Source: a virus (Duplodnaviria; Caudoviricetes). Taken from it: a stretch of DNA of 64,000 nucleotides. The stretch is from IMG/VR virus record IMGVR_UViG_2974512537_000001, positions 17,077 through 81,076 of that record, one strand, 5' to 3'. This document shows, one piece after another, positions 1-64,000 of the stretch. The notes under the pieces were generated by a model that saw only the letters and a program-made list of their open reading frames with translations, made no database searches and was not told the origin of the DNA. Each line of letters begins with the position of its first letter. Position 1 is the first letter of the stretch. A program made the position numbers and the translations under genes.

Positions 1-182
1 CATTGTCATCTGACCAATAGTCCTTGTTTTTGTCGAAAATTACAACGTCATCGGGGGACACATGCTTAAAACCAACGCTATCCAAATAATAAAATTCACC
101 GTCCAGCTTTACAATCTTTCGGTTAAGTTCTGTTTCACCATAGAAAGCGAAGAAACTTTTAATGTCCACAACAGATAAAACC

Positions 183-422
183 TTATTTCCTTTTCTTGTG
201 TAACCAATCATTTTTTGTTCTCTCCTTATCCTTATAAAAAATCTGACGTGTTTCACCGACTTCTGTGATGGCATACTTCACGTCATCGCCGGCCTTAGCT
301 TTCAATCCATCAATCGGATTATAATTACAGCTTTTCCAATAATTAGTGTACCAAGTCAGTTGGTTTGTCTGTGCCCAAGCTTTTGATTCACCAAGTGTTT
401 TGAATTTCTTTATTTCATTCAT
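183..422 (-). CDS. hypothetical protein
   Basis: 79 aa ORF, start overlaps the upstream gene end, same strand as neighbours. Confidence 0.6.
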   Translation of the reverse strand: MNEIKKFKTLGESKAWAQTNQLTWYTNYWKSCNYNPIDGLKAKAGDDVKYAITEVGETRQIFYKDKERTKNDWLHKKRK

Positions 423-747
423 TAAATTCCACTACCCCAGTAATTAGGAATGCTGTTGCTACGATTGCTACTAACCAAGCGGCACCATTACTAAAACCTG
501 CACCTGCACAGATAGCGAAACCAGCAACCCCAATTGCATAGAAAATCATGGCTGGAATGCTGAAAGTCAAACTGAACGTTTCTTTATTGATGGCCGACAA
601 CAAATACGTGTACAGTGTTGTCAAGACAATCATGAACACTGCGTGCTTAAATCCGGGGCCTTTTAGAATATCAGTATATTGGTATACAGTGTACAACACA
701 ATCCAGTAAGAAGCAAGTAGTGCAATCATTTTTAATAGTTTATTCAT
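415..747 (-). CDS. small multi-pass membrane protein
   Basis: About four hydrophobic segments; start moved to ATG 747 behind GAGGTG SD. Confidence 0.65.
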   Translation of the reverse strand: MNKLLKMIALLASYWIVLYTVYQYTDILKGPGFKHAVFMIVLTTLYTYLLSAINKETFSLTFSIPAMIFYAIGVAGFAICAGAGFSNGAAWLVAIVATAFLITGVVEFNE

Positions 748-1120
748 GGTAATCACCTCGATAGATAGTCGTATTAACGTCATAGCCGTGGTCTAACAGC
801 ATTTTCTTACCTTCGTCTGACATTACTGTGTAGCCACTGTTGATTTTGTGCGTGATGTAAAAGTAATTATAGAAAACCGAGGTTAACAAAATTCCCAAGA
901 TATTAATAAATGGATTAAAACCAGTAAAAACGTAAATCGCTAAAATTAATAGGAACCCTAGAAAATCACCTCGGAATAACGGAGCAATTGGCCCAAAGAA
1001 TGTAACCGTGAAAGATAGCCCTGATGGTGCCGATTTTGTCTTGCCTGTTCGTGGATTGAATAAATAAACTTTTCGGTTGGTATCATCAAATACCGTGCTT
1101 AGATACTTTTTAATCTTCAT
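740..1120 (-). CDS. membrane protein (DUF2628-like)
   Basis: GLSFTVTFFGPIAPLFRGD followed by TM helices; AGGAGG SD before ATG 1120. Confidence 0.6.
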   Translation of the reverse strand: MKIKKYLSTVFDDTNRKVYLFNPRTGKTKSAPSGLSFTVTFFGPIAPLFRGDFLGFLLILAIYVFTGFNPFINILGILLTSVFYNYFYITHKINSGYTVMSDEGKKMLLDHGYDVNTTIYRGDYHE

Positions 1121-1132
1121 TTTCAATTCCTC

Positions 1133-1306
1133 CTATAAACGTGTTTTAGCTTCAATTTTGTCTACACAATCTTTCGGGACGTTCGTAACCTGACCACAGA
1201 TAGAACAGTGCAAAACTGATAAACCTCCGAATGTTTTTAGCCAAGGCTGGTCAGTTACCAAAACCCAATGGTGTTTGTGTAATTTTGTTGGTTTCCTAAA
1301 TTTCAT
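1133..1306 (-). CDS. 57 aa putative Zn-binding protein (not in ORF track)
   Basis: Hand-translated MKFRKPTKLHKHHWV...LHCSICGQ...; GGAGGA SD upstream; HxH and CxxC motifs. Confidence 0.6.
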   Translation of the reverse strand: MKFRKPTKLHKHHWVLVTDQPWLKTFGGLSVLHCSICGQVTNVPKDCVDKIEAKTRL

Positions 1307-1309
1307 GAT

Positions 1310-1630
1310 TTATTTCCTCCAATCAACAGTTAAAAAGTGTTGTTCGCAAGGAATCCAAGCGGCCGGAAATAATTCGACCTTATAACCAAGTGATTTTAAC
1401 CACTTTTTGATTTCCTTGTAGTTCTTCAACAGTAAATCTTCTGGCTCAAAATATCCTTGACAATCTTGGTTTTTGTAGACAGAAATTGTGACATCAAAAC
1501 CAAAACCAGTCAGCGAAAGAATATCTCTCATTACCTTTTGTTTATCATCGTCTAGGCTACCCAGATTGCTTTTAGTTGCTTTACTTCTAACAGATAATTC
1601 GTAAGCCTCTGCTTGTGTTAGCTCTCGCAT
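1310..1630 (-). CDS. hypothetical protein
   Basis: AAGGAG SD upstream; preceded by a TTGACA-17-TAAAAT promoter. Confidence 0.65.
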   Translation of the reverse strand: MRELTQAEAYELSVRSKATKSNLGSLDDDKQKVMRDILSLTGFGFDVTISVYKNQDCQGYFEPEDLLLKNYKEIKKWLKSLGYKVELFPAAWIPCEQHFLTVDWRK

Positions 1631-1754
1631 TACTATCACTCCTTTTTTCTTATCACACTCTGTATTTTACCTGAATACATCGTCTATGTCAACCATTATT
1701 TAAAATAATCTTGATTTTTCATTCATATTACCTCTTCCCTTTAATTTATGAATC

Positions 1755-1785
1755 AATTATACTGCGTATTCTACCAAATGTCAAC
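1755..1785 (-). promoter_or_regulatory. sigma-A-like promoter
   Basis: TTGACA-17 nt-TATAAT on the minus strand. Confidence 0.75.
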
Positions 1786-1833
1786 ACTTTTTAAAAAATG
1801 CAAAAATAAAAAAGAGCATTTCTGCTCTTAATT

Positions 1834-9445: not shown

Positions 9446-9494
9446 TTAATAGAAAAGACACATGATTTTTAATACAATATGATACATAACTAAC

Positions 9495-9648: not shown

Positions 9649-9840
9649 GTGATTATCTTGTTTTCTGTTGGTGATTTTGTTAAAGTTAAAAATACAGATA
9701 TTTATGGAGTTGTAGTCGCACTAATCAATGTATTCGATGTAGCTCAACATACAGACGATATGTTGGCTATTTCTATTACTGGTTCCACCGAAACAAAGTT
9801 ATTTAATCGAAGCAGTGTAGAAAAAATCTTACCAGAATAA
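9649..9840 (+). CDS. hypothetical protein (small beta-barrel-like)
   Basis: AAGGAG SD; FSVGDFVKVK pattern; promoter upstream. Confidence 0.6.
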   Translation: MIILFSVGDFVKVKNTDIYGVVVALINVFDVAQHTDDMLAISITGSTETKLFNRSSVEKILPE

Positions 9841-9912
9841 TTTAAAAAATCTTGACATAAAAGTCACTTTTTGTTATAATGTATTTATAAATGATAAGGA
9901 GTTGGAAATTCA

Positions 9913-10155
9913 ATGAGAGAAATTAAGAATAATACTGTCAACATTGGTGGCAGAGAATTGTGTTTATCAGATTTGTGCCAGGTAGTATCAGTTAGTGATG
10001 ATATGCCGCTTCTTATCACGCAATGGTTCGACTTTATCGGAAGCCGTGATGAATGCTGGGATATGGTTAATACTACCGATGTTGTTCCACAGAAAGGTTC
10101 TCATCTGTCTGTCGTGACAAGTAAATGGAGTACGGTAGAACGGGAGGATTGGTAA
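9913..10155 (+). CDS. hypothetical protein
   Basis: AAGGAG SD; TTGACA/TATAAT promoter at about 9852. Confidence 0.65.
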   Translation: MREIKNNTVNIGGRELCLSDLCQVVSVSDDMPLLITQWFDFIGSRDECWDMVNTTDVVPQKGSHLSVVTSKWSTVEREDW

Positions 10156-10156
10156 T

Positions 10157-10591
10157 TTGGGTTTACAACATTATGGTAATAAAATTAAAGAAAATGGTAT
10201 TACGTTTGATTCTCAAAAAGAATATGATTTCTATGATAGGTTTTTGAGGAACTCTGATGTTGAATCAATCACTATACATGAGAAGTTTAATTTATTAGAA
10301 AAGAACGTTATTAACGACAAAATCACATTGCGTGGCATTACCTACCGACCAGATTTCGTGGTACGAGATAAAGGAATTATTAAACACGTATATGACGTAA
10401 AGAACGGATTCACACCTTATGCGATTGACCGTGGAGCAGGAATTGTATTCAAACTATTCGCCAAGCAATATGGTATTCCTGTTGAAGTCGTTGTTGTAAG
10501 GAAACATGATTTTAAAACAAAGGTTCTTGGTACAACTAAAAAATATGATATTAAGATTCACGAAAATATAAAATACGACTGGAGCGAATAA
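10157..10591 (+). CDS. DUF1064-like PD-(D/E)XK endonuclease
   Basis: GITFDSQKE, YRPDF, YDVKNG motifs. Confidence 0.75.
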   Translation: MGLQHYGNKIKENGITFDSQKEYDFYDRFLRNSDVESITIHEKFNLLEKNVINDKITLRGITYRPDFVVRDKGIIKHVYDVKNGFTPYAIDRGAGIVFKLFAKQYGIPVEVVVVRKHDFKTKVLGTTKKYDIKIHENIKYDWSE

Positions 10592-10593
10592 AA

Positions 10594-10911
10594 ATGTTTA
10601 GACGATTTGAAGGGGCGTTAAACGGCGTCACTTTATTTGACTTAAAAAAGATTTTCTTTGAAAACTACTATGACCAAACGCACAATGCAGAACAGCGTGT
10701 TGCAGACTGCAAAAAGTTCCTTGAAGAACAAAGCAATGGATTTTTCGGTGAATATTTCAGCTCTCAATTCTTAGTGTCTACCCCTAAAGACCAAGTTGAG
10801 TCTGAAAACGACAATGTTTCTCACTTCCTAGAGGTTGTAGCGACCTACGTTATCTTAGGTGATAGTGAAGATTATCCTTTGGATAAAGAATTATTTGCAA
10901 GAAATTTGTAA
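10594..10911 (+). CDS. hypothetical protein
   Basis: ORF coupled to the upstream gene. Confidence 0.6.
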   Translation: MFRRFEGALNGVTLFDLKKIFFENYYDQTHNAEQRVADCKKFLEEQSNGFFGEYFSSQFLVSTPKDQVESENDNVSHFLEVVATYVILGDSEDYPLDKELFARNL

Positions 10912-11123
10912 AAATGGTTGACTTTTTAATAAGAAAGTGTTAATATATAATCGTAATAAGATAAATATAAGGAGTGATAATGATGGTTAAAGAACCTGTT
11001 GCTTAAAAGCTGGATAATCGGTTAGTCGAAAAATAAATTTAAAAAGTGCTTGACTTATGTTTTAATCAATGTTATAATTATGAAGTAAAGTTGAATAAGA
11101 AAAAATATTGGGAGGAATTTTAT

Positions 11124-12107
11124 ATGACTGAACTTAAAGAATTAAAGGGCAATCAACTTTCAGTAACTGGTACTTTAGCTGAAAAATCACTTGAATTATC
11201 AACTGACCGTGATGGTAATGAAATTATTAAGGGATATATTCGTGTTCAAGTAGAACAAAACAATCGAGTAAACGTAGTTACTTTCAACGTATACAACCGC
11301 AAGTTCACTCGTAGTGGTTCTGAAAATAAATTGTTTGCTGGTTTTGTTACTGTTATGAATCAATACAAATCCTTACAGGACACTAACGGCAACAAAGACG
11401 AAGCAGACCGAGTTCAAATTATCGGTGATTTATCATACAACGTTTATTCATCTGATGGTGAAACCGTTCGTGAATCAAATCGTTTCCGTGCAACGACATG
11501 CCACCGTGTAAATGGTCAAGATTTAGAAGATGACACTTACGGTAGCATTCCGGCAGTTATTGAAAGCTATGACGAAGACCTTGACAAGGACGGAAATCCA
11601 ACTGGTTTATGGAAAGTTAAAGCATTCACTGTGGGTTATAATGGTCGAGTTGGTCGTGTAATGGACTTAAAGATTGCTAGTGAATTGGCGTCTGAAATGC
11701 AAGGTGCATTCCCAGAAGGAACTACCGGCGTACTTTACTACAATATTTTGAACTATGTTGTCGTTAAGAAGCAAAATGTTGACAATGATGGCGGTGGTTC
11801 ATTTGGTCAAATTCATGCAGTTGTTCAATCAAATTCTTATGTTCGTCAATTGTTAATCGTTGGTGGTGCACCGTTAGAAAATGATGAATTAGCACTTACG
11901 GAAGACCAAATCCAAAAGGCTCACGAGGAATTACGCAAACAACGTACAGAAGCAATTTCACGTGCAAACAACAAGCCAACTGCCCCTGTTAAAAACACTC
12001 AACCAGTTCGTCAAGGCGGATTTGGTAGCGCAGTAAAGAACGAATCAAACCCGTTTGCTAACAGTGGTGCAGGATTAGAAATTTCTGACGATGACTTGCC
12101 ATTCTAA
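11124..12107 (+). CDS. single-stranded DNA-binding protein
   Basis: OB-fold-like body and acidic tail ending DDDLPF; GGGAGGA SD before ATG 11124. Confidence 0.75.
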   Translation: MTELKELKGNQLSVTGTLAEKSLELSTDRDGNEIIKGYIRVQVEQNNRVNVVTFNVYNRKFTRSGSENKLFAGFVTVMNQYKSLQDTNGNKDEADRVQIIGDLSYNVYSSDGETVRESNRFRATTCHRVNGQDLEDDTYGSIPAVIESYDEDLDKDGNPTGLWKVKAFTVGYNGRVGRVMDLKIASELASEMQGAFPEGTTGVLYYNILNYVVVKKQNVDNDGGGSFGQIHAVVQSNSYVRQLLIVGGAPLENDELALTEDQIQKAHEELRKQRTEAISRANNKPTAPVKNTQPVRQGGFGSAVKNESNPFANSGAGLEISDDDLPF

Positions 12108-12167
12108 GATTTGATTGCGATGTTAATGTCCAAGCATAGTTTTTAAAAATAGGAGGAAAACACGATA

Positions 12168-13211
12168 ATGATTGATTTAACGAAGATTGAACCTAACAAA
12201 GTTTCTACTGACCCTTCAAGTTACAGCTTATTGCTGTACGGGCCGTCTAAGATTGGTAAGACGACCTTTGTGCAAGAACTGTTCCCTAAAGTGCTTCATA
12301 TCATGACTGAAAAGCGTTACGGCGCTTTAGATGGTGCGATGGTTCAATATGTGTCTAGCTGGAGTGAATTTAAACAAGTTCTATCGCAGTTAAAGCGTAA
12401 AGAAGTTCAAGAAATGTTTGACGCCATCTCAATTGACACAATCGAAAACCTGTACCGTTATGCAGATAAATTCACGGCTTCTCAATTTGACGAATTTAGT
12501 GTTGGTGATGGTAATGTTGGATATGGGCGTGACCATACACGCCTAAACGAAGTTTGGTTCCGTGGTTTGAAAGAATTAGAATCATTACCTTACACGAATA
12601 TCTTTGTTTCGCACTCAATTGAAAAGATTGTAAAAATGCCGTATATCAACTCTGCTGAATTTAATTCAATTCCTGACGCTGTCGTATCACAAGAAAGCGA
12701 TGGAACAGAAATGGTTGAATTTACAAAGATTGTTCCTGACTTGAAAGAAAAAGCATTGGGGCCGGTTACTAAGATGGTTGATAACGTATTGTACGCTGAA
12801 AACAACTTAGTAAACGGTAAAGAACAACGGGTATTACACTTACGTGGAACGCTTCAATATGAAGCTGGTACAACATTCAAAGGTGTTAAACCGATTATTC
12901 CATTCACTGCCGAATCGTATAAAGAAGAAGTTAAACGGGTTCTCGGTGGCAACTATGAAAAGACAACTGACAAGAAAGTCTTACACGCTGACACCAAGGA
13001 CGTTGAATATGACTTTGATGACTTGCTAGAAAAGACCAAAGAAGTCGCAATCTTGTTCCAAAAGAACAACGACATTAAGACTTTGACAACAATTGTTGAA
13101 AAGACCTTAGGTAAAGGTAACAAGGTTAACGATTTAAACGAGGGTCGTGTTGAAGACCTAGCAATCATCTTGGCAGACTTGACCGAAGCCGCAGAAAAGA
13201 AAGGATATTAA
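12168..13211 (+). CDS. AAA-family NTP-binding protein (Sak4-like)
   Basis: YGPSKIGKTT Walker A, ISIDTI Walker B, IFVSHS; adjacent to SSB. Confidence 0.75.
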   Translation: MIDLTKIEPNKVSTDPSSYSLLLYGPSKIGKTTFVQELFPKVLHIMTEKRYGALDGAMVQYVSSWSEFKQVLSQLKRKEVQEMFDAISIDTIENLYRYADKFTASQFDEFSVGDGNVGYGRDHTRLNEVWFRGLKELESLPYTNIFVSHSIEKIVKMPYINSAEFNSIPDAVVSQESDGTEMVEFTKIVPDLKEKALGPVTKMVDNVLYAENNLVNGKEQRVLHLRGTLQYEAGTTFKGVKPIIPFTAESYKEEVKRVLGGNYEKTTDKKVLHADTKDVEYDFDDLLEKTKEVAILFQKNNDIKTLTTIVEKTLGKGNKVNDLNEGRVEDLAIILADLTEAAEKKGY

Positions 13212-13217
13212 AAACTA

Positions 13218-14450
13218 ATGGCAACTTACACAGACAACAAAGGCAAAACGCATGAAATTGACGATATTGGGCTGGAAACAGCCTCTCGGTATAAGACTGA
13301 ATTACAACGTGAAAACGGACGGGCTAACTGGGGCAAAGTAGCCCGTTTGTTGCGACAAGATGGTTATGACGCAAAGCAATGCGAAGGGTTGCGACAACTG
13401 GTAAAGAAATATCAACGTAGAACTGGCGTATTAAAGTCATCTAAGGAACAGCGTTCCTTGGAATTAGACCACAAACGTAATGCTCTTGATAAAGAAATTG
13501 ATGAAATGTTGCTGGAAAAGCGTGAATTACAATTAATGCGGCGTGAATTTAATAAGAGTCGCCGTGACTATGCTGATATGGAATTATTCAAGCGTGACGT
13601 AAAGCGGTCATTAAAAGATGGCATTACAGTCGTTCCTAACGAACTGGATTACCCTGTTGTAAAACCGCTAAGTGACGGAAGCGTATTAATTGTTGCGTTG
13701 TCAGACCTCCATATTGGAGCTAAAGTTGATGTAGATGGTTACAAATATGATGAAGACATTGCTAAAGATAAATTATCTGAATATGCAGACAAGGTAATTC
13801 GATATGCTAGTTTTTCTAAGTTCGGTGCGATTTACATTGAGAACTTAGGCGATTCTATCGAAGGTGCCTACATGAGAAACAATCAATCATACGAAATTAC
13901 GATGAAGCTGTCTGAACAAATTAATACGGCGATTAAATTGGTTTCAGAATTTGTTGTCAATATCGCTAAGAACACTGGCATTCCAGTTATTTATTCGGGT
14001 ATCTTAGGCAATCACGACCGTGCCAACGGTAATAAAAAGGATAACTTGCCTGATGATGGCTTTTCAACAGTGCTGAATGAGGCCATTAAGCTGATTGCAG
14101 AACAAACTTCTTATGATATTACCGTAAAAGAGCCTGATAAAGTTACCGAAGACCATTTGAGTGTCAATGGAAACAATATCAAGTTCGTACACGGCGACCT
14201 TCATAACCTTGCTAAAGCTGAAACATTGGCAACGTCTTCACAATTCGACAGCATGTTATATGACGCAATTTTAGGTGGACACTTCCACAGTATGTCGATA
14301 CGTGAGGAATCTGGGCTAGTTATTCAATCTGGTAGCGTCATTGGCCCTACGAGTTATTCAGAACGACTGCACTATCGAGCCTCACGCTCACAAGTTATGT
14401 TAGATGTAAGTAGTGATGGAACGGTTACTCCGTTACCAGTTATTTTATAA
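13218..14450 (+). CDS. calcineurin-like metallophosphoesterase with N-terminal helical region
   Basis: SDLHIG, LGD, GNHD, HGD and GHFH motifs all present. Confidence 0.8.
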   Translation: MATYTDNKGKTHEIDDIGLETASRYKTELQRENGRANWGKVARLLRQDGYDAKQCEGLRQLVKKYQRRTGVLKSSKEQRSLELDHKRNALDKEIDEMLLEKRELQLMRREFNKSRRDYADMELFKRDVKRSLKDGITVVPNELDYPVVKPLSDGSVLIVALSDLHIGAKVDVDGYKYDEDIAKDKLSEYADKVIRYASFSKFGAIYIENLGDSIEGAYMRNNQSYEITMKLSEQINTAIKLVSEFVVNIAKNTGIPVIYSGILGNHDRANGNKKDNLPDDGFSTVLNEAIKLIAEQTSYDITVKEPDKVTEDHLSVNGNNIKFVHGDLHNLAKAETLATSSQFDSMLYDAILGGHFHSMSIREESGLVIQSGSVIGPTSYSERLHYRASRSQVMLDVSSDGTVTPLPVIL

Positions 14451-14489
14451 AAACTGATAGAACACAAAATAGAAAGAGGTATAAAAACT

Positions 14490-15227
14490 TTGGAAAATAA
14501 AAATTTAAGTTACAATCCAGAATCTGTTAGTCGAGTATTTAATTGGCATTGGTACAAAGACCAGATGACCGGCTGGACAAAATCCAGCTATGTCTTGCTG
14601 GTAATTGGTTGGCTGTTCCTATTATATGTTGGTCTTGGTCATGGAATTACTGGTTTGGGAGTAACTTCAACGATTGCCGGGTTGATTGGTTTTACTTGTA
14701 CGTTAAGTATCACGAATGGACGTCCTATCAACGGTGTTCTGGGCTTCGTTTCTGCGGCTATGCTGATTTACGTGGCATTAAAGACAGGGAACTTCTCTGA
14801 TATTGTTATGCAAGGCTTCTATATCTTCCTGTTGGACTTGCCGGTGCTATTTAATAAGACTTGGAATAATGGTAAAGATTTAGAACCTCGTAAGATGAAC
14901 TCCAAGTTCGCTTTGCAGACAGCATTAACTTTCGTTGGTTTCTTTATCGTGACATACGGTCTTGATACGGTTATCTTAACGAGTCCTCGTCCGTTTATTG
15001 ACGCATTTGCCGCTACTATCGGTCTTACTGGGGCAATCTTAACCGTTCGCCGTTTCCGTGCTTCTTACTACTTCTGGTTTGCACAAGGTCTTAGTTCAGT
15101 CGCATTGTGGTTGGTAACTGCTATGCAAGGAGAAGCTGTTTGGGTTCTGTTCTTTACCTACATGCTATATATTATGAACGACCTTGTAGCGTTCTTTGAC
15201 AGTAAGTGGTTTGCAAAGAAAAAATAA
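14490..15227 (+). CDS. pnuC: PnuC-family nucleoside/nicotinamide riboside transporter
   Basis: About seven TM helices; G.FSD..MQ.FY, DA....IG..GAIL, WF.Q....V.LW pattern. Confidence 0.8.
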   Translation: MENKNLSYNPESVSRVFNWHWYKDQMTGWTKSSYVLLVIGWLFLLYVGLGHGITGLGVTSTIAGLIGFTCTLSITNGRPINGVLGFVSAAMLIYVALKTGNFSDIVMQGFYIFLLDLPVLFNKTWNNGKDLEPRKMNSKFALQTALTFVGFFIVTYGLDTVILTSPRPFIDAFAATIGLTGAILTVRRFRASYYFWFAQGLSSVALWLVTAMQGEAVWVLFFTYMLYIMNDLVAFFDSKWFAKKK

Positions 15228-15305
15228 AAATTGAATAATTGTGGTTGTAAAACCTCCTTATCTGATGTATAATATAGTTACATTAAAGATGAGGAGGTTT
15301 TTTGT

Positions 15306-15821
15306 ATGGAAAAAGAAGTTTGGAAGCCAATATTGGGTTATCCTAATTATGAAGTATCTAGCCTTGGTAGGGTTAGGTCAATTACTAGAAAAGTTAAAAC
15401 AAGAGGAAACGGAACCAGAACCGTCAAGTCTAAAATAATCTCACAAGACACAACTGGAAGGTATCATATGGTGACGCTATACAAAAATGGCGTGCCAAAA
15501 AATGTATCTGTTCATAGACAAGTAGCTCTGGCTTTTATTGATAACCCAGACAATAAGGAAACTGTTGACCATATTGATAGAAATAAAGATAATAACAGGG
15601 CGTCCAATCTTAGGTGGGCGAGCAGGCTAGAACAAGAGAAAAACAAGACATTCCCACAAAGAGAAATATATGCAATCAAAGATAATAGAAAAATGAAATA
15701 TTCTGGGGTTAATGATTGTGCAAGAAGACTTGGACTTAGCGCCTCAAAAATAAGTGCTTGTTTGAGAGGTAGAAGAAATACACATGGTGGGTATCACTTT
15801 TGCGAGTGCAACAAGAAATAA
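15306..15821 (+). CDS. free-standing HNH homing endonuclease (NUMOD4-HNH-NUMOD1)
   Basis: EVWKPI.GYPNYEVSSLGRVRS; VHR.VA.AF, VDHIDRNK.NN...NLRW; C-terminal HTH. Confidence 0.9.
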   Translation: MEKEVWKPILGYPNYEVSSLGRVRSITRKVKTRGNGTRTVKSKIISQDTTGRYHMVTLYKNGVPKNVSVHRQVALAFIDNPDNKETVDHIDRNKDNNRASNLRWASRLEQEKNKTFPQREIYAIKDNRKMKYSGVNDCARRLGLSASKISACLRGRRNTHGGYHFCECNKK

Positions 15822-15914
15822 AAATAATTTAATTATGGGCTTGACTATAAGCACAAATCATGATATAATTACAGATGTAATAAGGATTTGAAAAAGAAAG
15901 GAAAAGTGATTGTG

Positions 15915-16256
15915 ATGGGTAATGAAGAAGAATATATTAGAGAGCTAGAACAACAGGTTGATGACCTTGAAGCTGAAAATGATTCACTTGGCACTGAGCT
16001 TGATAATAGCGAGATTGATAACCAAGAATTATCACGAGAATATGATTCTCTTGAACAAGACTATGATGATTTGTATAAGGAAAACGTCAAATTAAGAGAA
16101 AGGCTTGAAAACTCTAATGTACCTGAAATTATCAATGATATTCATTCCATGATTGGTAATGGTATTTCTTACACAGAATTTAAGAAGATTGCAGATATGT
16201 TGTCAATTAAGTATTCTATTAAGGAGCCAATATTTGGTTTAGATTATGGTGAATAA
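15915..16256 (+). CDS. acidic coiled-coil protein, paralog 1
   Basis: Heptad repeats; C-terminal IGNGI...FKKIADML...YSIK.PI.GLDY shared with the next gene. Confidence 0.7.
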   Translation: MGNEEEYIRELEQQVDDLEAENDSLGTELDNSEIDNQELSREYDSLEQDYDDLYKENVKLRERLENSNVPEIINDIHSMIGNGISYTEFKKIADMLSIKYSIKEPIFGLDYGE

Positions 16257-18640: not shown

Positions 18641-18732
18641 TAACTATAAAGCTTGACAAAGCATATCAGAAATGGTATGCTTTTTACATAGAAAGAAGGA
18701 ATAAAAATGAAAATGTTTGGTGGTTATGAACA

Positions 18733-19205: not shown

Positions 19206-19234
19206 TTGACAAAAACTGTTTCTGGACGTATAAT
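19206..19234 (+). promoter_or_regulatory. consensus promoter for mazF
   Basis: TTGACA(19206)-17 nt-TATAAT(19229). Confidence 0.8.
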
Positions 19235-19267: not shown

Positions 19268-19630
19268 ATGTTAGTAAATAATGAGAGAATTGAACGAGGA
19301 AATGTATACTACGCAGATTTGGGCGAACGGCAAAACAGCCGTGACGCTGTACAGAGAGGACGCCGCCCCGTGTTGGTTGTGTCAAATAACTTGGCAAACA
19401 AATACTCACCAGCAATTACGATTGTGCCGTTGACTACTCGCAACAAGCACCATTTACCAACTCATGTCGAATTTGAATTACCAAATCACGGTGAAATGGT
19501 TTCAAACACGGCGCTTTGTGAGCAAGTTAGAACGATTAATGTTGACCAATTATATTTCAAGATTGGTGTTTTGGACGATGATATTATGAAAGAAGTCAAT
19601 AAGTGTTTGGGGGTGGCATTATCGCTGTGA
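19268..19630 (+). CDS. mazF: MazF/PemK-family endoribonuclease, no adjacent antitoxin
   Basis: RGNVYYADLG...Q.G.RPVLVVSN..ANKYSP.ITIVPLTT, ALCEQVRTI; catalytic Arg and Thr equivalents of B. subtilis EndoA retained. Confidence 0.9.
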   Translation: MLVNNERIERGNVYYADLGERQNSRDAVQRGRRPVLVVSNNLANKYSPAITIVPLTTRNKHHLPTHVEFELPNHGEMVSNTALCEQVRTINVDQLYFKIGVLDDDIMKEVNKCLGVALSL

Positions 19631-19956
19631 AAGTTTATCTTACTTATTATAAAGCAAGTGATGGTGTTAGAGTTGCATATGCCTGTGCGGGCGATTACTG
19701 GGTGAACTTCTATTTTCGGAGATTCGATAAGAGCAACACTGAAAAAGATGTCCTTAATTATATCATGAGCTTTGCAGACAAGAGTAATGAGAAAGTCTTC
19801 ATCATCTCAAATAATCAAAAGATGATTAGAATTATGCAGAAAATGGAAGATACAGACAACGTGTCATTCATTGGTAGATATGAAAGCGAACAGACGCGTG
19901 ACATTTTCGTCAAGCTTCAAGTAGCACTGACAAAAAAGGAGAATTATAATGATTAA
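19627..19956 (+). CDS. hypothetical protein coupled to mazF
   Basis: GTG start overlaps the mazF TGA (GTGA). Confidence 0.65.
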   Translation: MKVYLTYYKASDGVRVAYACAGDYWVNFYFRRFDKSNTEKDVLNYIMSFADKSNEKVFIISNNQKMIRIMQKMEDTDNVSFIGRYESEQTRDIFVKLQVALTKKENYND

Positions 19957-29355: not shown

Positions 29356-29418
29356 TGTTTCTCACCATTCCTTTTTATTGTTTTTGATATGTACCCCACA
29401 CAATGTGTGGGTTGTTAA

Positions 29419-40277: not shown

Positions 40278-40329
40278 TCCATTACCTCCAAATCGTTATT
40301 TTATGTACCGAGGGTTTCCCCTCGTGAAA

Positions 40330-42108: not shown

Positions 42109-42176
42109 TGGTCAAACCCCCTATAAAATGTGTTTTTTATTGCGAATATGTACACGAGGGTTGCCCCTCGTATAAC

Positions 42177-47840: not shown

Positions 47841-47851
47841 TTAAAAACCCT

Positions 47852-47885: not shown

Positions 47886-47914
47886 ACTAACAAAAATAAG
47901 TAAAAACAATAACA

Positions 47915-48136
47915 TTACCCCTCGGCAATGTTATCTTCTAACCAGTACCCTAAAGGAACTACCTCATCGTCAGAACCAGAACCATCGCTGTTGTCATCAA
48001 CAGATAGCATTTCTAGTAAATCAAAATAATTGGTTTCCTCTAGGTTGTTGAACGTGTCTTGCTTTTGAGCAACTAATGCTTTTTCAAGACGATTAATCTC
48101 GTCCAGCGTTTCCTGAAACGTCTGCGGTTCCGCTGG
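47915..48136 (-). CDS. tail assembly chaperone C-terminal extension (gpT-like), no own start
   Basis: TFNNLEETNYFDLLEML gpT-like motif; +1 frame overlapping the end of the chaperone gene; no SD-supported start. Confidence 0.6.
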   Translation of the reverse strand, partial: PAEPQTFQETLDEINRLEKALVAQKQDTFNNLEETNYFDLLEMLSVDDNSDGSGSDDEVVPLGYWLEDNIAEG

Positions 48137-48491: not shown

Positions 48492-48620
48492 GTGAATCTC
48501 CTCGTCTTTCATCTAATATTTTATTTTTGGATATGTACACACACACCCCAGACGGGGCATGTAGGTGATTATTCAGCCTCAATTGTTACATTACTCACAC
48601 TAGGAGCAACCTGAGCTAAT

Positions 48621-50804: not shown

Positions 50805-50846
50805 CTATTACAACACCTCCTATGTACGCCCCAAAACGGGGCAAGA

Positions 50847-51323: not shown

Positions 51324-51445
51324 TTCCTCCTTATCTTTGTAAATATGTACGCCCCCTCAAAAGAGGGGGTTGTTATCAAGTTTATTCGGCCGCAACTTTT
51401 ACGCTACTCACATCTGGAGTAACCTTAGTGACCTTTGGTGACGGA

Positions 51446-57131: not shown

Positions 57132-57250
57132 ATCACCTCATTATATGCTATAATGTAGACTGTAAAATCTACATTTTATGTACTCTCGGCCTAAAATAAC
57201 ATGGAAAGAAAACACCGAGAAGCGTTTTGCTTTATTGTGATTAAGCTACA

Positions 57251-57324: not shown

Positions 57325-57520
57325 TAGTCCTAGCTTGGGCCACACTGTTAGGAGGTGTGCTAGGTGCAATTATGTATGGGGTCGGATAAGTAGACGTCAC
57401 TTATCGGGACTGGCGGTCAGATACAAAGCCTCTGCCGAGCAATATGGTGACCCTCCAACCATATTAATGCAAAAGTGCTGTTTATAAGGCCCGTTTAGAA
57501 GACGCGAGCGCGTTTAACTT
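57325..57520 (-). ncRNA. structured non-coding segment
   Basis: Stems AATATGGT/ACCATATT, GATAAGT/ACTTATC, CCTAGC/GCTAGG, CACAC/GTGTG; no credible ORF. Confidence 0.5.
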
Positions 57521-58163: not shown

Positions 58164-58238
58164 TTGCGAGTGGCAGGAGTCGAACCTGCTATTTAAAGGT
58201 TATGAACCTTTCGTGATTTTCCGTTTCACTCCACCGCA
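58164..58238 (-). tRNA. tRNA with CAU anticodon (Met or Ile2)
   Basis: AAAGG-TTCATAA-CCTTT arm, canonical T arm, acceptor stem with a one-nt bulge. Confidence 0.65.
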
Positions 58239-58484: not shown

Positions 58485-58742
58485 TTATGTATGCCCGACA
58501 CACTGGCACCCTAAGTGTCATGTTATCAGGGCTTTATCTATCTCAACCGAGGCTAGACCAGACAGATTTGGTTTTTCTACTAGTAAAAGAATGCTTGCCT
58601 CCAAAGGCTACTCCATTATGGAACTTTTACTTTCGGGTGCGCGCTTCTCGGAACTTAAATCACTATGTACATAAGTCGGGTACAAACTACCCCGCTCTTA
58701 ATTTTAATCAGATATATGTACTTCCAGCCGATTAAGACTGGA
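58485..58742 (-). ncRNA. structured non-coding segment between terS and tRNA-Asn
   Basis: Stems TTCCAGTC/GGCTGGAA, GTACATA/TATGTAC, GGGTA/TACCC, GTAAAAG/CTTTTAC, GCCC/GGGC, GACAC/GTGTC. Confidence 0.5.
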
Positions 58743-58747
58743 ATTAA

Positions 58748-59807: not shown

Positions 59808-60022
59808 GTTAAAAACTCCTCTCTGGTTTTGTTATTTACAGTCCCGATAGAAAAAGGCATAGGAAAACATTGCGGGACATCGCAGTTGTGCGCCGAACAG
59901 CGGTTTTTTTAGATAATAATTATCTGCCACACCGAGTATATATGTAGAGAGAGAAATTAATCTCTCACAGGAGGAAAGTGTATGAATAAGGAAAATGAAA
60001 ATGAATGAATTAAAGGAGAGGT

Positions 60023-61481: not shown

Positions 61482-61553
61482 AAATAAAAAAGTGCTTGAC
61501 TTTTACCGCCTCGTGCGGTAAGATACATATATAAATTAAAGGAGGTGATAAAA

Positions 61554-61962: not shown

Positions 61963-61974
61963 GAGGAAATTAAA

Positions 61975-62199
61975 ATGATTAAGATTTTAGTTGAACAACA
62001 AATTGATGGCAACGGGAACAAAGCAACAATTATTGAACCGAAAGATGGCTTAAAAGCTATTGACGCACTGACGACACTGGCTTCACCTGTGGTTAACTTA
62101 ATCCTCGAAGCTACCGATAACGACCGTGAGAAGTCGATTGAAGCTCTAACAGCGTTGTTAGATAGTTATATTGAAGCCAACGACATTGAAACACGATAG
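61975..62199 (+). CDS. small early protein, paralog 2
   Basis: IKILVE...G..A.D..T..A.P......AN.I shared with 61735-61962. Confidence 0.7.
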   Translation: MIKILVEQQIDGNGNKATIIEPKDGLKAIDALTTLASPVVNLILEATDNDREKSIEALTALLDSYIEANDIETR

Positions 62200-62205
62200 G
62201 AGGAA

Positions 62206-62400
62206 ATGAAGATGAAAGACAAAATGACGGGCAACATTGCAATTGAAGTTACTGATGACCAAGTTAAATTTAAATCTGAATTGGACGAACAAACCACGTG
62301 GGGGTTCATTATCGTATCTTTAATCAACCTATCAAAACGACTCGACCTTGATGAAGATGAATTATTAGAAATGGTAAAATACACTTGGAAAGAGATGTAA
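62206..62400 (+). CDS. hypothetical protein
   Basis: TAGGAGG SD. Confidence 0.65.
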   Translation: MKMKDKMTGNIAIEVTDDQVKFKSELDEQTTWGFIIVSLINLSKRLDLDEDELLEMVKYTWKEM

Positions 62401-62416
62401 AATTAAGGGGAAGAAA

Positions 62417-62749
62417 ATTAAAATAACTGGGAATGGAATCTTTGAAGTAAACTTAGCAACTTTGGAAGCGCAGTGGCGTGAATCATGGGCAGAAGCTTCA
62501 CGAGAGTTAGGAATCAGCACGTCAAACATCAATGACGTTATTGATGGTCGAGCGCGTTCAGCGCTAGGCTACTGGTTCGTAAATGACGATGATGAAGCGG
62601 TTGAAAATGTCCATAAGAAGTTTCATGGTGCTCAAAAAGAAGGGCTATGGTTTACGGAAACTGGTGACAAAGAAGTAGACAATAAGTTAATGAACTTTGT
62701 TGTTGGAGCGCACCATGATAGTAATGCTATTTTAAAGGTTGAAATTTAG
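62417..62749 (+). CDS. stand-alone NUMOD1/IENR1-like HTH protein (start uncertain, possibly ATT)
   Basis: WRESWAEASRELGIS.SNI..VI.GR...A.GYWF; frame open upstream of TTG 62462. Confidence 0.55.
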   Translation: MKITGNGIFEVNLATLEAQWRESWAEASRELGISTSNINDVIDGRARSALGYWFVNDDDEAVENVHKKFHGAQKEGLWFTETGDKEVDNKLMNFVVGAHHDSNAILKVEI

Positions 62750-62761
62750 GGAGTGATAATA

Positions 62762-63502
62762 ATGGAAAATGAATTGGTAATCATGCACGACCGACAGGCG
62801 GTGACGAGTAGCTTGCAAGTGGCAGAAACGTTTGAGAAGCAACACAAAAATATCATCAGAGATATTGATAAGTTACTGGAATCTGGTGGCTCAAAATTGA
62901 GCCGCGAGATGTTTTCCAAAGGTGCTTATGCAAATCGTGGTAAGCAATACCCAATGTATTACATGAACCGTGATGGTTTCACGTTGTTGGCCATGGGCTT
63001 CAATGGCAAGAAAGCAATGCAATTCAAGTTGAAGTATATTGAAGCATTTAATTCTATGGAGAAGCAACTTTCAGTTAAGACTGACAGTTACATGATTCAA
63101 GACCCTATTAAACGAGCGGAACGTTGGATTGAGGAGCAGAGGGAACTGAAAGAAGTCCGAAAGGAGTTGGAAATCACTAAACCTAAAGCACAATTCGCAG
63201 ACGCTGTATCTACCAGTAAAACGAGTATTTCGATTACTACTCTTGCTAAACTGCTCAAACAAAACGGCGCTGATATTGGACGGAACCGATTGTTTGCTTG
63301 GTTGCGTAATAACAACTATTTAATCAAATCAGGTAACGACCGCAACACGCCAACACAACGTTCAATGGAGCTAGGGTTGTTTGAAGTAAGAGAAAAGACT
63401 TATTTTAACGATTATGGTGACACTGCACTTAGCAAGTCTTCACGAGTTACTGGTAAAGGACAACAATATTTCATTAACAAATTTTTAAAGGAACAATATT
63501 AA
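62762..63502 (+). CDS. Rha-family + KilAC antirepressor-like protein
   Basis: TSSLQVAETFEKQHKNIIRDI, MNRDGFTLLAMGF; KPKA.FAD.V, GRNRLF.WLR, VTGKGQQYFINKF. Confidence 0.88.
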   Translation: MENELVIMHDRQAVTSSLQVAETFEKQHKNIIRDIDKLLESGGSKLSREMFSKGAYANRGKQYPMYYMNRDGFTLLAMGFNGKKAMQFKLKYIEAFNSMEKQLSVKTDSYMIQDPIKRAERWIEEQRELKEVRKELEITKPKAQFADAVSTSKTSISITTLAKLLKQNGADIGRNRLFAWLRNNNYLIKSGNDRNTPTQRSMELGLFEVREKTYFNDYGDTALSKSSRVTGKGQQYFINKFLKEQY

Positions 63503-63516
63503 GGAGGAATCGAAAG

Positions 63517-63825
63517 ATGACAACAATTAATTTTGACAACACAATCAAAGCAACGGAAGATTATAAAGTAGGCGACTGGTTAATGCGAGTTATGAATGAA
63601 CGAGTTAACGATAACTACGTTGACGACAACCATATTTATCATGTGACAAGTATTGCGATTAATGACAGTACCAAGAAATATGTTCTAATTCCAGTTAGTG
63701 AGCACCCCATCTTAGCGGCAGAACCAATGTTTGACACGCTGTATGAAATGGCGAGCTATTATTTCGCACAGAACATTAAACTTGTTAAGGTTGACGTTAA
63801 CATGAACGTTAAGTTGAGTGAATAG
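63517..63825 (+). CDS. hypothetical protein
   Basis: AAGGAGG SD. Confidence 0.65.
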   Translation: MTTINFDNTIKATEDYKVGDWLMRVMNERVNDNYVDDNHIYHVTSIAINDSTKKYVLIPVSEHPILAAEPMFDTLYEMASYYFAQNIKLVKVDVNMNVKLSE

Positions 63826-64000
63826 AGGTTATTTAGTCGTCAAAAAATTTGGCGGCTTTTTTGTAAATATGGCTTGACAGATTTTGAAAAAGTGTTATCA
63901 TGAGAACATGAAAGGTTGATGATTATGATTAAAATGGATAAGTATGCCAAAACTGCCCAAAAAATATTTTTCCAAAAAATGCTGAACTAGGATTTTGTGC

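What the first reader, a model, noticed from the sequence alone, without database searches (positions are those of the whole stretch)
1..64000. Strand-specific exclusion of TACATA from all sense coding sequence
My manual scan found 15 sense-strand TACATA, all non-coding: (+) 9483, 18685, 61523; (-) 29388, 40302, 42147, 48532, 50821, 51344, 57177, 57371, 58486, 58664, 58715, 59941. I found none in sense CDS. The same hexamer does occur antisense inside genes (e.g. + strand 31464, 34821, 39888, 39949, 44119). UACAUU, UACAUC and UACAUG occur in sense CDS (e.g. 29690, 32590, 32067). So the avoidance is strand-specific and needs the sixth base, which argues for an RNA-level target, not a restriction site and not the 5-nt UACAU of known Firmicute MazFs. 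Assuming about 62% AT, a naive expectation is a few tens of CDS hits. The scan was by eye and could have missed sites.
Basis: partly seen in the sequence, partly recalled or inferred. Interest (0 to 1): 0.8.

Follow-up and report, generated by a model that had tools for sequence, protein, structure and literature searches.

The report
MazF cut-site avoidance in phage genes
The hexamer TACATA is missing from all coding mRNA of this Lactiplantibacillus phage because UACAUA is the known cut site of the MazF/EndoA RNase; the host and its other phages avoid it too, and this phage keeps it only just after RNA hairpins between genes, probably as deliberate mRNA processing points.

Summary
The whole 81-kb phage genome (Tybeckvirinae, close to Lactobacillus phage P1) has 0 sense-strand TACATA in 70 kb of CDS. 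Expected counts are 10 to 13 by codon shuffles and 5.5 by a frame-aware Markov model. There are 12 antisense copies, as expected, and 16 sense-oriented intergenic copies against 4.3 expected.

U^ACAUA is the published strict 6-nt cleavage motif of Bacillota MazF/EndoA, so this is the known MazF site and not a new target.

The avoidance is not special to this phage:
- Three Tybeckvirinae genera: 6 observed, 39 expected.
- Six other L. plantarum phages, five of them without a mazF gene: 10 observed, 87 expected.
- 400 kb of a Lactiplantibacillus chromosome: 6 observed, 29 expected.

One-base variants and the antisense strand are close to expectation. An alr-linked EndoA-type mazF is present in 21 of 23 Lactiplantibacillus species genomes.

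The less ordinary part is the retained sites. They lie 0 to 3 nt after stable hairpins at late-gene junctions, or at the +1 of promoters. At least 11 positions are syntenic across three genera, with unrelated stem sequences. All five relatives examined, from three genera, also encode a divergent MazF.

Best reading: host-MazF-driven site avoidance (well supported), plus hairpin-UACAUA processing modules (inferred).

The parts
19268..19630 (+). Phage mazF (120 aa), PemK/MazF-family endoribonuclease
   Evidence: Pfam PF02452, E = 1.7e-22, 80 bits. Best solved homologues are S. aureus MazF and B. subtilis EndoA, E about 1e-19. It is 37% identical to the host-genus MazF. A homologue is present in all five relatives tested.
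19206..19234 (+). Consensus sigma-A-type promoter (TTGACA-17-TATAAT) directly upstream of mazF
   Evidence: 12 of 12 match in the promoter scan.
19627..19956 (+). 109-aa ORF overlapping the mazF stop by 4 nt; RNase H-like fold; function unknown
   Evidence: The mazF, ~107-116-aa ORF, ~177-182-aa ORF, LysM gene order is kept in all genera; sequence similarity of this ORF was found in P1 and 8014-B2, and in SA-C12 and Lenus only an ORF of like size and position. Alignment A1. AlphaFold model pLDDT 75.5. Foldseek top hits are RNase H1 and RT RNase H domains, E about 1e-3, TM about 0.5. No Pfam hit.
18653..18690 (+). Class I module. Promoter TTGACA-17-TATGCT whose spacer and -10 form an 11-bp inverted repeat, then TTT, then TACATA (18685-18690). 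It heads the operon of the 62-aa ORF, the 75-aa ORF and mazF.
   Evidence: Promoter scan 10 of 12 with TG. Hairpin -12.5 kcal/mol, z = -5.6. The same arrangement lies directly upstream of mazF in 8014-B2, SA-C12 and Lenus.
61496..61529 (+). Class I module: TTGACT-17-TAAGAT promoter with an internal hairpin; TACATA (61524-61529) overlaps the end of the -10
   Evidence: Sequence context. Hairpin -10.8 kcal/mol, z = -3.6.
29388..29411 (-). Class II module: 7-bp hairpin + G + UACAUA, 33 nt before the start of the integrase-like gene
   Evidence: -11.4 kcal/mol. Syntenic modules with different stems occur in P1, 8014-B2, SA-C12 and Lenus.
40302..40324 (-). Class II module at the Dit-to-Tal junction: hairpin + G + UACAUA, then the RBS
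   Evidence: -12.0 kcal/mol, z = -3.7. Syntenic in four relatives with unrelated stems.
42147..42174 (-). Class II module at the tape-measure-to-Dit junction
   Evidence: -16.5 kcal/mol, z = -5.0. Syntenic in four relatives.
48532..48563 (-). Class II module after the major tail protein gene; the stem has three G-U pairs
   Evidence: -16 kcal/mol, z = -2.1. G-U count and sense-versus-antisense stability. Syntenic in P1, 8014-B2, SA-C12, Lenus and the distant relative L126.
50821..50842 (-). Class II module: hairpin + G + UACAUA immediately followed by GGAGGUG (RBS) of the 95-aa gene
   Evidence: z = -2.3. Syntenic in P1, 8014-B2, SA-C12, Lenus, L120 and L122. The RBS starts right after the hexamer, which excludes a -10 promoter role.
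51344..51369 (-). Class II module after the major capsid protein gene
   Evidence: -15.3 kcal/mol, z = -4.2. At least four unrelated stems occupy this junction in relatives, including L126 at 56% MCP identity.
57177..57221 (-). Long-loop stem + UACAUA upstream of the large terminase gene; the same element occurs in the unrelated myovirus Semele
   Evidence: z = -2.65. The near-identical element is in P1, 8014-B2 and Semele at 132860.
57371..57410 (-). Hairpin, 4 nt, then UACAUA, 47 nt upstream of tRNA-Arg
   Evidence: z = -3.1. tRNA.
58486..58491 (-). UACAUA 4 nt upstream of tRNA-Asn (head of the tRNA cluster); no significant hairpin
   Evidence: z = +0.3. The SA-C12 site at 30819 has the same downstream sequence.
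58664..58743 (-). Two hairpin-UACAUA modules (58715 and 58664) downstream of the small terminase gene
   Evidence: z = -4.75 and -1.4. The paired modules are syntenic in P1, 8014-B2, SA-C12 and Lenus.
59941..59969 (-). Hairpin-UACAUA module upstream of the HNH/terS genes
   Evidence: z = -2.9. Syntenic in P1, 8014-B2, SA-C12 and Lenus.
9483..9488 (+). Sense-oriented intergenic TACATA without a hairpin, in the ORF-free region between the divergent arms
   Evidence: no structure.

Best explanation
TACATA on the coding strand is UACAUA in mRNA, the cleavage site (U^ACAUA) of the EndoA/MazF-type endoribonuclease of Bacillota.

Shown here:
1. The host genus carries the alr-linked EndoA-type mazF.
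2. The host chromosome and every L. plantarum phage examined, with or without its own mazF, have purged UACAUA from sense CDS about 5- to 8-fold. All three reading frames are affected. The antisense strand is unaffected and one-base neighbours mostly lie within 0.6-1.2 of expectation.
3. In this phage and its subfamily the surviving sites are enriched in sense-oriented intergenic RNA. They sit 0 to 3 nt after stable hairpins whose sequences differ completely between genera while the hexamer and its position stay fixed.

Inferred:
4. Selection against MazF cleavage of coding mRNA, mainly by the host enzyme, causes the avoidance.
5. The hairpin-UACAUA modules are places where cleavage is used. 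A cut would leave the upstream cistron ending in a protective 3' hairpin. The downstream RNA would start at 5'-OH-ACAUA just ahead of its RBS or tRNA. This would punctuate the long late transcript, much as RNase III sites do in T7.
6. At the promoter-type sites the predicted start falls inside the hexamer, so only read-through RNA would carry a full site.
7. The phage's own early-region MazF, which is divergent and has conserved catalytic Arg and Thr, plausibly supplies or reinforces this activity. Its specificity is untested.
For: Motif identity. U^ACAUA is a strict 6-mer for B. subtilis EndoA, where only UACAU followed by A is cut (PMC11780869). The same holds for Listeria and S. aureus MazF in reporters (bioRxiv 10.64898/2026.08.06.743204). 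S. aureus secondary motifs are UACAUN and UACNUA.

Avoidance, sense CDS observed/expected:
- Own genome 0/10.1, P1 0/10.0, 8014-B2 3/12.8, SA-C12 3/15.6, Lenus 6/16.2. Antisense is as expected.
- LP65 1/29.6, 8014-B1 0/3.2, phiJL-1 0/5.2, phig1e 0/5.4, Sha1 3/7.6, Semele 6/35.4.
- Host-genus chromosome 6/29.2.
- One-base neighbours mostly give ratios of 0.6 to 1.2. Secondary dips occur at TACATC (0.50), TACTTA (0.58) and TACGTA (0.32), which are the reported weak MazF sites.
- All three frames are depleted: 2/26, 5/37, 9/64.
- Pooled ranks are 5th and 2nd of 4096, and 1st for strand asymmetry.

Host nuclease. PF02452 at E <= 1e-25 in 21 of 23 Lactiplantibacillus species genomes. The gene is next to alr and matches EndoA and B. 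anthracis PemK at E about 1e-50.

Host dependence. Streptococcus and Lactococcus phages are depleted only to 0.51 (32/63).

Modules.
- TACATA is the commonest hexamer 0 to 3 nt after sense intergenic hairpins in each of three genera: 11, 8 and 9 cases, ahead of T runs.
- 55 to 70% of sense intergenic sites have such a hairpin, against 0% of antisense sites and 3 to 13% of random intergenic positions.
- 11 of 15 window sites have an upstream hairpin with z <= -2.1.
- Junctions are syntenic with unrelated stems.
- There are 27 G-U pairs; 37 of 58 stems are more stable as sense RNA, against 5 as antisense.
- None scores as an intrinsic terminator.
- At 50821 the RBS abuts the hexamer.

Phage mazF.
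Against: No cleavage data exist for this phage, this host or this phage's MazF.

The phage MazF is only 37% identical to the host enzyme. Its beta1-beta2 loop lacks the GSEQGG motif; the Glu of that motif was needed for activity in MazF-Da. It may therefore cut something else or act differently.

No MazE-like ORF lies between alr and mazF in the sampled host-genus genome, so how the host enzyme is regulated is unknown.

The actual host strain was not examined. The chromosome sampled is an unnamed Lactiplantibacillus species.

Streptococcus and Lactococcus phages still show a two-fold dip. A 2026 preprint lists Streptococcus as a genus without the conserved MazF. Part of the depletion may therefore have another cause, or other PemK-type toxins may act there.

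Hairpin-TACATA modules are not strictly tied to phage mazF. phig1e, which has no mazF, has one clean module. Perkons has mazF but no CDS depletion (97/65).

The sense-versus-antisense stability comparison is biased, because modules were selected on the sense fold.

Gene calls are my own ORF heuristics. Some CDS hits in relatives are visibly intergenic modules.
Confidence: 0.7

Rival explanations
1. The phage's own MazF, not the host's, is the selective agent. The phage cleans its genes of UACAUA so that its own nuclease can destroy host mRNA while sparing phage mRNA.
For: All five Tybeckvirinae tested carry mazF under a consensus promoter. Module-rich genomes (Tybeckvirinae, Semele, PMBT24) are mazF+.
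Against: L. plantarum phages with no PF02452 gene are just as depleted: LP65 1/29.6, and four small phages 3/21.4 in total. The host's own CDS are depleted five-fold, so host mRNA is a poor target. Perkons carries mazF without any depletion.
Confidence: 0.1
2. There is no nuclease involvement. The gap is a neutral or translational sequence-context bias (TA avoidance, rare ATA codon, codon pairs) that phages inherit by mimicking host composition.
For: The depletion is shared with the host. A frame-aware order-4 Markov model lowers the expectation in this genome to 5.5. Streptococcus and Lactococcus phages still show a ratio of 0.51.
Against: Synonymous-codon shuffles keep codon usage and protein sequence. 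All three frames are depleted. Most of the 18 one-base neighbours, including AACATA, TACAAA, TATATA and TACATG, are at 0.8 to 1.1. The reverse complement is unaffected. The hexamer equals a published nuclease site, and the secondary dips match that enzyme's weak sites.
Confidence: 0.08
3. TACATA is a DNA or transcription-level signal, such as a promoter initiation region, a late-promoter element or a regulator site. It is kept out of genes to avoid spurious internal starts.
For: Three sites in this genome and most Semele sites lie 0 to 4 nt after the -10 of TTGACA-17-TAnnnT promoters. Perkons has 65 sense intergenic copies in leaders.
Against: The late-junction modules have no -35 or -10 above chance. 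At 50821 the RBS starts right after the hexamer, so a start 7 nt downstream would lose it. The stems are unrelated in sequence, contain G-U pairs and fold better as sense RNA. Phages and a host genome that lack intergenic enrichment still avoid the hexamer in CDS.
Confidence: 0.07
4. A different, still unknown RNase or RNA-binding factor recognises hairpin + UACAUA.
For: The hairpin context is not a known requirement of MazF. The gene coupled to phage mazF encodes an uncharacterised RNase H-fold protein.
Against: The CDS avoidance needs no hairpin, and its specificity profile equals that of MazF. An exact match between a 6-mer and a nuclease encoded in both host genus and phage is unlikely by chance.
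Confidence: 0.05

Closest known systems
B. subtilis EndoA (MazF) and its Listeria and S. aureus orthologues: strict U^ACAUA cleavage, with UACAUA absent from rRNA and ribosomal genes of MazF-encoding Bacillota (PMC11780869; bioRxiv 10.64898/2026.08.06.743204; PMC7470975)
   Same: The hexamer is identical, acts on the RNA strand and needs the sixth base. The same weak secondary sites (UACAUC, UACUUA, UACNUA) are partly avoided. The host-genus gene is alr-linked and matches EndoA at E about 1e-50.
   Different: Those papers report avoidance only for 16S rRNA and ribosomal genes. Here avoidance covers the sampled host chromosome segment and the whole coding capacity of its phages. The preprint lists Lactobacillus (sensu stricto) as lacking MazF, whereas Lactiplantibacillus has it in 21 of 23 species genomes. 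No cleavage was measured here.
SPbeta / phi3T arbitrium phages and host MazEF (Guler et al., bioRxiv 10.1101/2023.04.27.537455; Zamora-Caballero et al., PMC10769878)
   Same: A Bacillota phage whose biology is shaped by the host UACAU(A)-specific MazF.
   Different: The strategy is the opposite. Those temperate phages are enriched in MazF sites and carry MazE-like inhibitors (AimX, YosL). This virulent phage family removes the sites from genes, keeps them at hairpin-marked junctions and carries a MazF, not an antitoxin.
Phage-directed mRNA processing: T7 RNase III sites between cistrons and T4 RegB (GGAG-specific phage endoribonuclease). This rests on established knowledge; the T4 review PMC3014915 surfaced.
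   Same: Intercistronic hairpin-associated cleavage that leaves a 3' hairpin on the upstream message (T7). A phage-encoded sequence-specific endoribonuclease acting in leaders and intergenic regions (RegB).
   Different: A different nuclease family (PemK/MazF fold) with a single-stranded 6-nt site next to the stem, not inside it. No experimental evidence exists here.
Restriction-site avoidance in phage genomes
   Same: Short words are missing far below expectation. This genome shows it strongly for GATC, GGATG, GAATTC, TTCGAA, CTGAAG and CTCAAG.
   Different: Those words are depleted on both strands and in non-coding DNA. TACATA is depleted only on the sense strand of CDS and is enriched in sense intergenic DNA.

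Membership tests
MazF/EndoA (U^ACAUA) target-site avoidance | The motif equals the experimentally defined cleavage hexamer, including the sixth base | tested here: met
   The literature gives U^ACAUA. Here the TACATA ratio is 0.12 to 0.22, against TACATT 0.8, TACATG 0.9 to 1.0 and TACATC 0.5.
MazF/EndoA (U^ACAUA) target-site avoidance | The effect is on the transcribed (sense) strand only | tested here: met
   Antisense observed/expected is 12/13.7, 13/17.2, 26/27, 45/40 and 63/54.5. TACATA ranks 1st of 4021 for strand asymmetry in six other L. plantarum phages.
MazF/EndoA (U^ACAUA) target-site avoidance | A MazF of the EndoA type is present in the host | tested here: met
   21 of 23 Lactiplantibacillus species genomes have one PF02452 match at about 128 bits, a level only B. 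subtilis reaches among the controls. The gene is alr-linked and matches EndoA at E = 2e-50. The exact host strain was not available. L. plantarum WCFS1 is listed with a MazF homologue in PMC3519753.
MazF/EndoA (U^ACAUA) target-site avoidance | RNA is actually cleaved at these sites in vivo | not testable with these tools
   This needs end-mapping of 5'-OH and cyclic-phosphate ends in infected cells.
PemK/MazF toxin family (window 19268-19630) | Pfam PF02452 above the gathering score, with the catalytic Arg and Thr of EndoA (R25, T48) conserved | tested here: met
   80.1 bits against a cut-off of 23.1. R33-P34 and T56 align with R25-P26 and T48; R33 and P34 are invariant and T56 nearly invariant (90% or more) among the 24 aligned homologues.
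PemK/MazF toxin family (window 19268-19630) | An adjacent cognate antitoxin (MazE/PemI-like) is present | tested here: inconclusive
   The neighbouring ORFs have no antitoxin Pfam hit. The upstream ORFs are not conserved between genera. The conserved, translationally coupled downstream ORF has an RNase H-like fold, not a MazE fold.
PemK/MazF toxin family (window 19268-19630) | UACAUA specificity of the phage enzyme | not testable with these tools
   It is only 37 to 40% identical to enzymes of known specificity, and its beta1-beta2 loop differs.
Restriction-site avoidance | The word and its reverse complement are both depleted, irrespective of coding status | tested here: not met
   The reverse complement TATGTA is 55 observed against 59.8 expected, and 137 against 126.5. 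Sense intergenic copies are enriched, 16 against 4.3.
Intrinsic (Rho-independent) terminators, for the hairpins | A GC-rich stem followed by a U tract | tested here: not met
   No module in 28000-47999 is called by the terminator scan. The tail is (G)UACAUA, not a T run. The only clear terminator is at 28080-28111.

The most novel reading that the evidence does not exclude
Tybeckvirinae, and perhaps other mazF-carrying phages such as Harbinvirus Semele and Enterocloster phage PMBT24, run a programmed mRNA punctuation system. A phage-encoded MazF, with or without the host enzyme, cuts at hairpin-UACAUA modules placed at cistron and operon boundaries. This would yield hairpin-capped stable messages, release tRNA precursors, insulate promoter units from read-through and feed back on the mazF operon itself. 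All coding sequence would be kept free of the site.
Probability: 0.35. Interest if true: 0.8.

Novelty: new variant of a known kind. Interest (0 to 1): 0.6.

Why it matters
Three points remain that the papers I could search do not report.

1. The MazF hexamer is purged from sense CDS of every L. plantarum phage tested and from the sampled host-genus chromosome segment. This is a clean evolutionary footprint showing that EndoA-type MazF acts on bulk mRNA in Lactiplantibacillus. It is also the opposite of the site-enriched SPbeta-type phages.

2. A family of virulent phages keeps the site only at hairpin-marked junctions that are conserved across genera.

3. The same phages carry their own MazF.

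If the modules are cut, this would be a toxin-family RNase used as a phage mRNA-processing enzyme. It would also offer a compact, portable intercistronic processing element for Gram-positive synthetic biology. In addition, the footprint method reads out a nuclease's in vivo specificity, including its weak sites, from genome sequence alone.

Tried and rejected
- A recA species primer recalled from memory found nothing in genome contigs. A 16S 19-mer then reached Lactiplantibacillus genomes but not a named L. plantarum, so the host sample is an unnamed species of the genus.
- The genome search does not draw relatives for a virus record.
- The word-indexed protein search with phage MazF returned only phage-like and distant homologues and did not reach a named host MazF.
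- MAFFT could not put the 30 modules in structural register: only TACATA aligned, with 43% mean column identity. No formal pair-covariation count was run. Stem turnover is shown by direct listing instead.
- Rfam finds only tRNAs in the window.
- Rejected: TACATA as a -10 element, on RBS position and the lack of a -35.
- Rejected: the hairpins as terminators, because there is no U tract.
- Rejected: phage mazF as the sole driver, because phages without mazF are equally depleted.
- Single-genome strand-asymmetry ranking lacks power (rank 175 of 3675). Only pooling shows the signal.

Full report
**Origin of the window.** The window is bases 17077-81076 of an 81,076-bp virus record. It is about 95% identical over the structural genes to Lactobacillus phage P1 and P2 (Maenadvirus), about 84% to ATCC 8014-B2 and Gut-P1, and about 74% to SA-C12, Lenus and Nyseid. 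All are Tybeckvirinae siphophages of L. plantarum or L. brevis. Genes run on the minus strand to about 8450, on the plus strand from 9650 to 28080 (replication and early genes), on the minus strand from 28118 to 60223 (late genes: terminase to lysis), and on the plus strand thereafter.

**Check of the observation.** An exact scan gives 24 TACATA on both strands, against 42.9 +/- 5.9 in dinucleotide shuffles. The four sites it missed are all antisense to local genes.

With my own ORF-based gene set for the whole genome (118 genes, 70.2 kb) the counts are:
- Sense CDS: 0.
- Antisense CDS: 12.
- Sense-oriented intergenic: 16.
- Antisense intergenic: 2.

Expected sense-CDS counts are 10.0 +/- 2.9 under synonymous-codon shuffling (none of 1000 shuffles reached 0), 13.1 under codon permutation, and 5.5 under the most conservative frame-aware order-4 Markov estimate. 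In this genome alone TACATA is only about the 71st to 83rd most depleted hexamer. The top places go to restriction-type words with zero copies: GATC-containing words, GGATG, GAATTC, TTCGAA, ACGACG, CTGAAG and CTCAAG. Intergenic copies number 16 against 4.3 +/- 2.2 expected.

**What the motif is.** A full-text search for MazF and UACAUA shows that the specificity of Firmicute MazF has been revised.
- In B. subtilis only U/ACAU followed by A is cut in vivo, and the signal disappears when ndoA is deleted (PMC11780869).
- A 2026 preprint shows with reporters that B. subtilis and Listeria MazF cut only UACAUA. S. aureus MazF prefers UACAUA, with weak activity on UACUUA and UACAUC. The preprint calls the 6-nt specificity conserved in Bacillota.
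- S. aureus nEMOTE data gave UACAUN and UACNUA.

The hexamer is exactly the known MazF site.

**Who else avoids it.** Using the same gene caller and shuffles, sense-CDS observed/expected values are:
- P1 0/10.0, 8014-B2 3/12.8, SA-C12 3/15.6, Lenus 6/16.2. Antisense counts are as expected. Several of the CDS hits in relatives are visibly intergenic modules that my caller mis-assigned.
- L. plantarum phages with no PF02452 gene: LP65 1/29.6, 8014-B1 0/3.2, phiJL-1 0/5.2, phig1e 0/5.4, Sha1 3/7.6.
- The mazF-carrying myovirus Semele: 6/35.4.

I reached the host genus through a 16S 19-mer. Of 23 Lactiplantibacillus species genomes, 21 hold one PF02452 match at about 128 bits, a level that only B. 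subtilis reaches among the control genomes. In one complete chromosome the gene follows alr and matches EndoA at E = 2e-50. No MazE-like ORF lies in the 420-nt gap. In 400 kb of that chromosome, sense-CDS TACATA is 6 observed against 29.2 expected, while TACATT, TACATC and TACATG are 89/100, 49/56 and 79/69.

Pooled footprints give TACATA ratios of 0.15 (three Tybeckvirinae genera), 0.12 (six other L. plantarum phages) and 0.22 (host). Most of the 18 one-base neighbours lie between 0.6 and 1.2. The secondary dips are TACATC (0.50 in both phage sets), TACTTA (0.58) and TACGTA (0.32 and 0.69). These are the weak sites reported for MazF. The depletion is present in all three reading frames (2/26, 5/37, 9/64), so it is not a single codon-pair effect.

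In all-hexamer rankings TACATA is 5th of 4096 in Tybeckvirinae. Apart from CAGGTG and, more weakly, GGATGA, it is the only word of the top 14 whose reverse complement is not clearly depleted. It is 2nd of 4096 and 1st of 4021 for strand asymmetry in the other L. plantarum phages, and has the 3rd lowest ratio in the host sample.

Phages of Streptococcus and Lactococcus show a weaker dip, 32/63.1, with antisense 78/74.6. The effect therefore depends on the host but is not all-or-none. The shared depletion carries the signature of the nuclease and not of a neutral bias.

**The retained sites.** In the window, 13 of the 15 sense intergenic sites follow a hairpin, and for 11 of them the fold z-score is -2.1 or lower. 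There are two classes.

- Class II sites lie between late genes: after the capsid gene, before the 95-aa gene, after the major tail gene, after the tape-measure gene, after Dit, before the integrase-like gene, after terS, before the HNH/terS genes, and upstream of terL and the tRNAs. Each consists of a GC-rich stem of 5 to 10 bp, 0 to 3 nt (usually G), UACAUA, and then 0 to 40 nt to the RBS.
- Class I sites are TTGACA-17-TAnnnT promoters whose spacer and -10 form an inverted repeat, with TACATA 0 to 4 nt after the -10 (18653-18690, 61496-61529 and one outside the window). A normal start would fall inside the hexamer, so only read-through RNA would carry a complete site.

An unbiased tally of hexamers starting 0 to 3 nt after every sense intergenic hairpin puts TACATA first in each of three genera (11, 8 and 9 cases), ahead of T runs. 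Between 55 and 70% of sense intergenic sites have such a hairpin, against none of the antisense sites and 3 to 13% of random intergenic positions.

The junctions are syntenic across Maenadvirus, Douglaswolinvirus, Lenusvirus and a metagenomic relative with 56% capsid identity, yet the stems are unrelated in sequence. After the capsid gene, for example, the stems are CCCCCUC/GAGGGGG, ACCUCCUC/GAGGAGGU, CCCCCA/UGGGGG and GAGGGC/GCCCUC. The stems contain 27 G-U pairs, and 37 of 58 are more stable as sense RNA, against 5 as antisense. This comparison carries a selection bias. None is called an intrinsic terminator, and no promoter-like match above chance coincides with the late modules. At 50821 the RBS GGAGGUG begins right after the hexamer, so the hexamer cannot be a -10 element there.

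**The phage's own MazF.**
- Window 19268-19630 is a PemK/MazF protein. It has a perfect TTGACA-17-TATAAT promoter.
- Its closest solved homologues are S. aureus MazF and EndoA. It is 37% identical to the host-genus enzyme.
- The catalytic Arg-Pro and Thr are conserved, but the beta1-beta2 loop differs.
- All five relatives carry it. In 8014-B2, SA-C12 and Lenus a class I module lies directly upstream of it, which suggests feedback.
- The cassette mazF, then an overlapping ORF of about 109 aa, then an ORF of about 177 aa, then a LysM protein, is conserved. The coupled ORF models as an RNase H-like fold. Whether it binds MazF could not be tested.

Module density is highest in mazF-carrying phages: 10 to 12 in Tybeckvirinae, 11 in Semele and 4 clean ones in PMBT24. 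It is low in LP65 (1) and the host sample (3, all terminator-like). However, phig1e, which lacks mazF, has one clean module, and Perkons, which has mazF, has no CDS depletion. The link between modules and phage mazF is therefore suggestive only.

**Conclusion.** The avoidance is real, strand-specific and hexamer-specific. It is best explained by selection against cleavage by EndoA-type MazF, principally the host's, and this selection acts on the host and on all its phages. That part belongs to a known kind of system. I found no report of genome-wide phage avoidance, and the known SPbeta/phi3T case is the opposite, being enriched in sites. The hairpin-UACAUA modules, and their coexistence with a phage-borne MazF, are the new element. 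A processing role is inferred from position, enrichment, conservation and stem turnover, not from cleavage data.

Noticed in passing
whole window and genome: Very strong two-strand avoidance of restriction-type words. GATC-containing hexamers, GGATG, GAATTC, TTCGAA, ACGACG/CGACGA and CTCAAG have 0 copies in 70 kb of sense CDS against 20 to 37 expected, and CTGAAG has 2 against 23 to 29. Pooled Tybeckvirinae also lack CTGCAG, TCTAGA, ATGCAT, AGTACT, TCCGGA and AGGCCT.
   Followed up: partly
window 19627-19956 (+): A 109-aa ORF overlaps the mazF stop by 4 nt. Sequence homologues follow mazF in P1 and 8014-B2, and a like-sized overlapping ORF holds that place in SA-C12 and Lenus. It has no Pfam hit. 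The AlphaFold model (pLDDT 75.5) has a beta-beta-beta-alpha-beta-alpha-beta-alpha RNase H-like fold, but there is no invariant acidic residue in strand 1.
   Followed up: partly
L058-L064 (Psychrobacillus phage Perkons, MT325768): This mazF-carrying phage does not avoid TACATA in CDS (97 observed, 65 expected). It has 65 sense intergenic copies against 9 antisense, typically 5 to 15 nt upstream of the RBS and without hairpins.
   Followed up: partly
L099:11591-12430 (Lactiplantibacillus sp. G013): The host-genus mazF follows alr after a 420-nt gap with no MazE-sized ORF. A TACATA lies 24 nt after the mazF stop codon. In L. carotarum (G001) the canonical mazF appears split into two frames.
   Followed up: partly
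window 57177-57240 (-) and Semele 132860 (-): The element UCGG(U/C)GUUUUCUU(U)CCAUGUU..UUUUA.GCCGAG.G + UACAUA upstream of terL is nearly identical in the unrelated Herelleviridae phage Semele. A 42-bp stretch (about 57326-57367, next to tRNA-Arg) is 100% identical in LP65 and Lpa804.
   Followed up: no
window 58165-58237 (-): Rfam calls a fifth tRNA (45 bits) that ARAGORN did not report.
   Followed up: no
window 23174-28080 (+): Phage P1 is annotated with one 1286-aa DNA polymerase. The window has ORFs of 477, 220 and 833 aa in the corresponding place (P1 has an HNH gene adjacent). The polymerase may be split by an inserted gene. Homology was not checked.
   Followed up: no
pooled Tybeckvirinae CDS: CAGGTG is depleted on the sense strand only (14 observed, 55 expected; reverse complement 16, 15.7). 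In this genome TACTTA is 6 against 23.7 on the sense strand and 23 against 20.1 on the antisense strand.
   Followed up: no
L065-L069 (Enterocloster phage PMBT24): An unrelated mazF-carrying phage of a clostridial host also shows sense-CDS depletion (6 observed, 30 expected). It has four clean hairpin-TACATA-RBS modules, one of them right after its major tail protein gene.
   Followed up: partly
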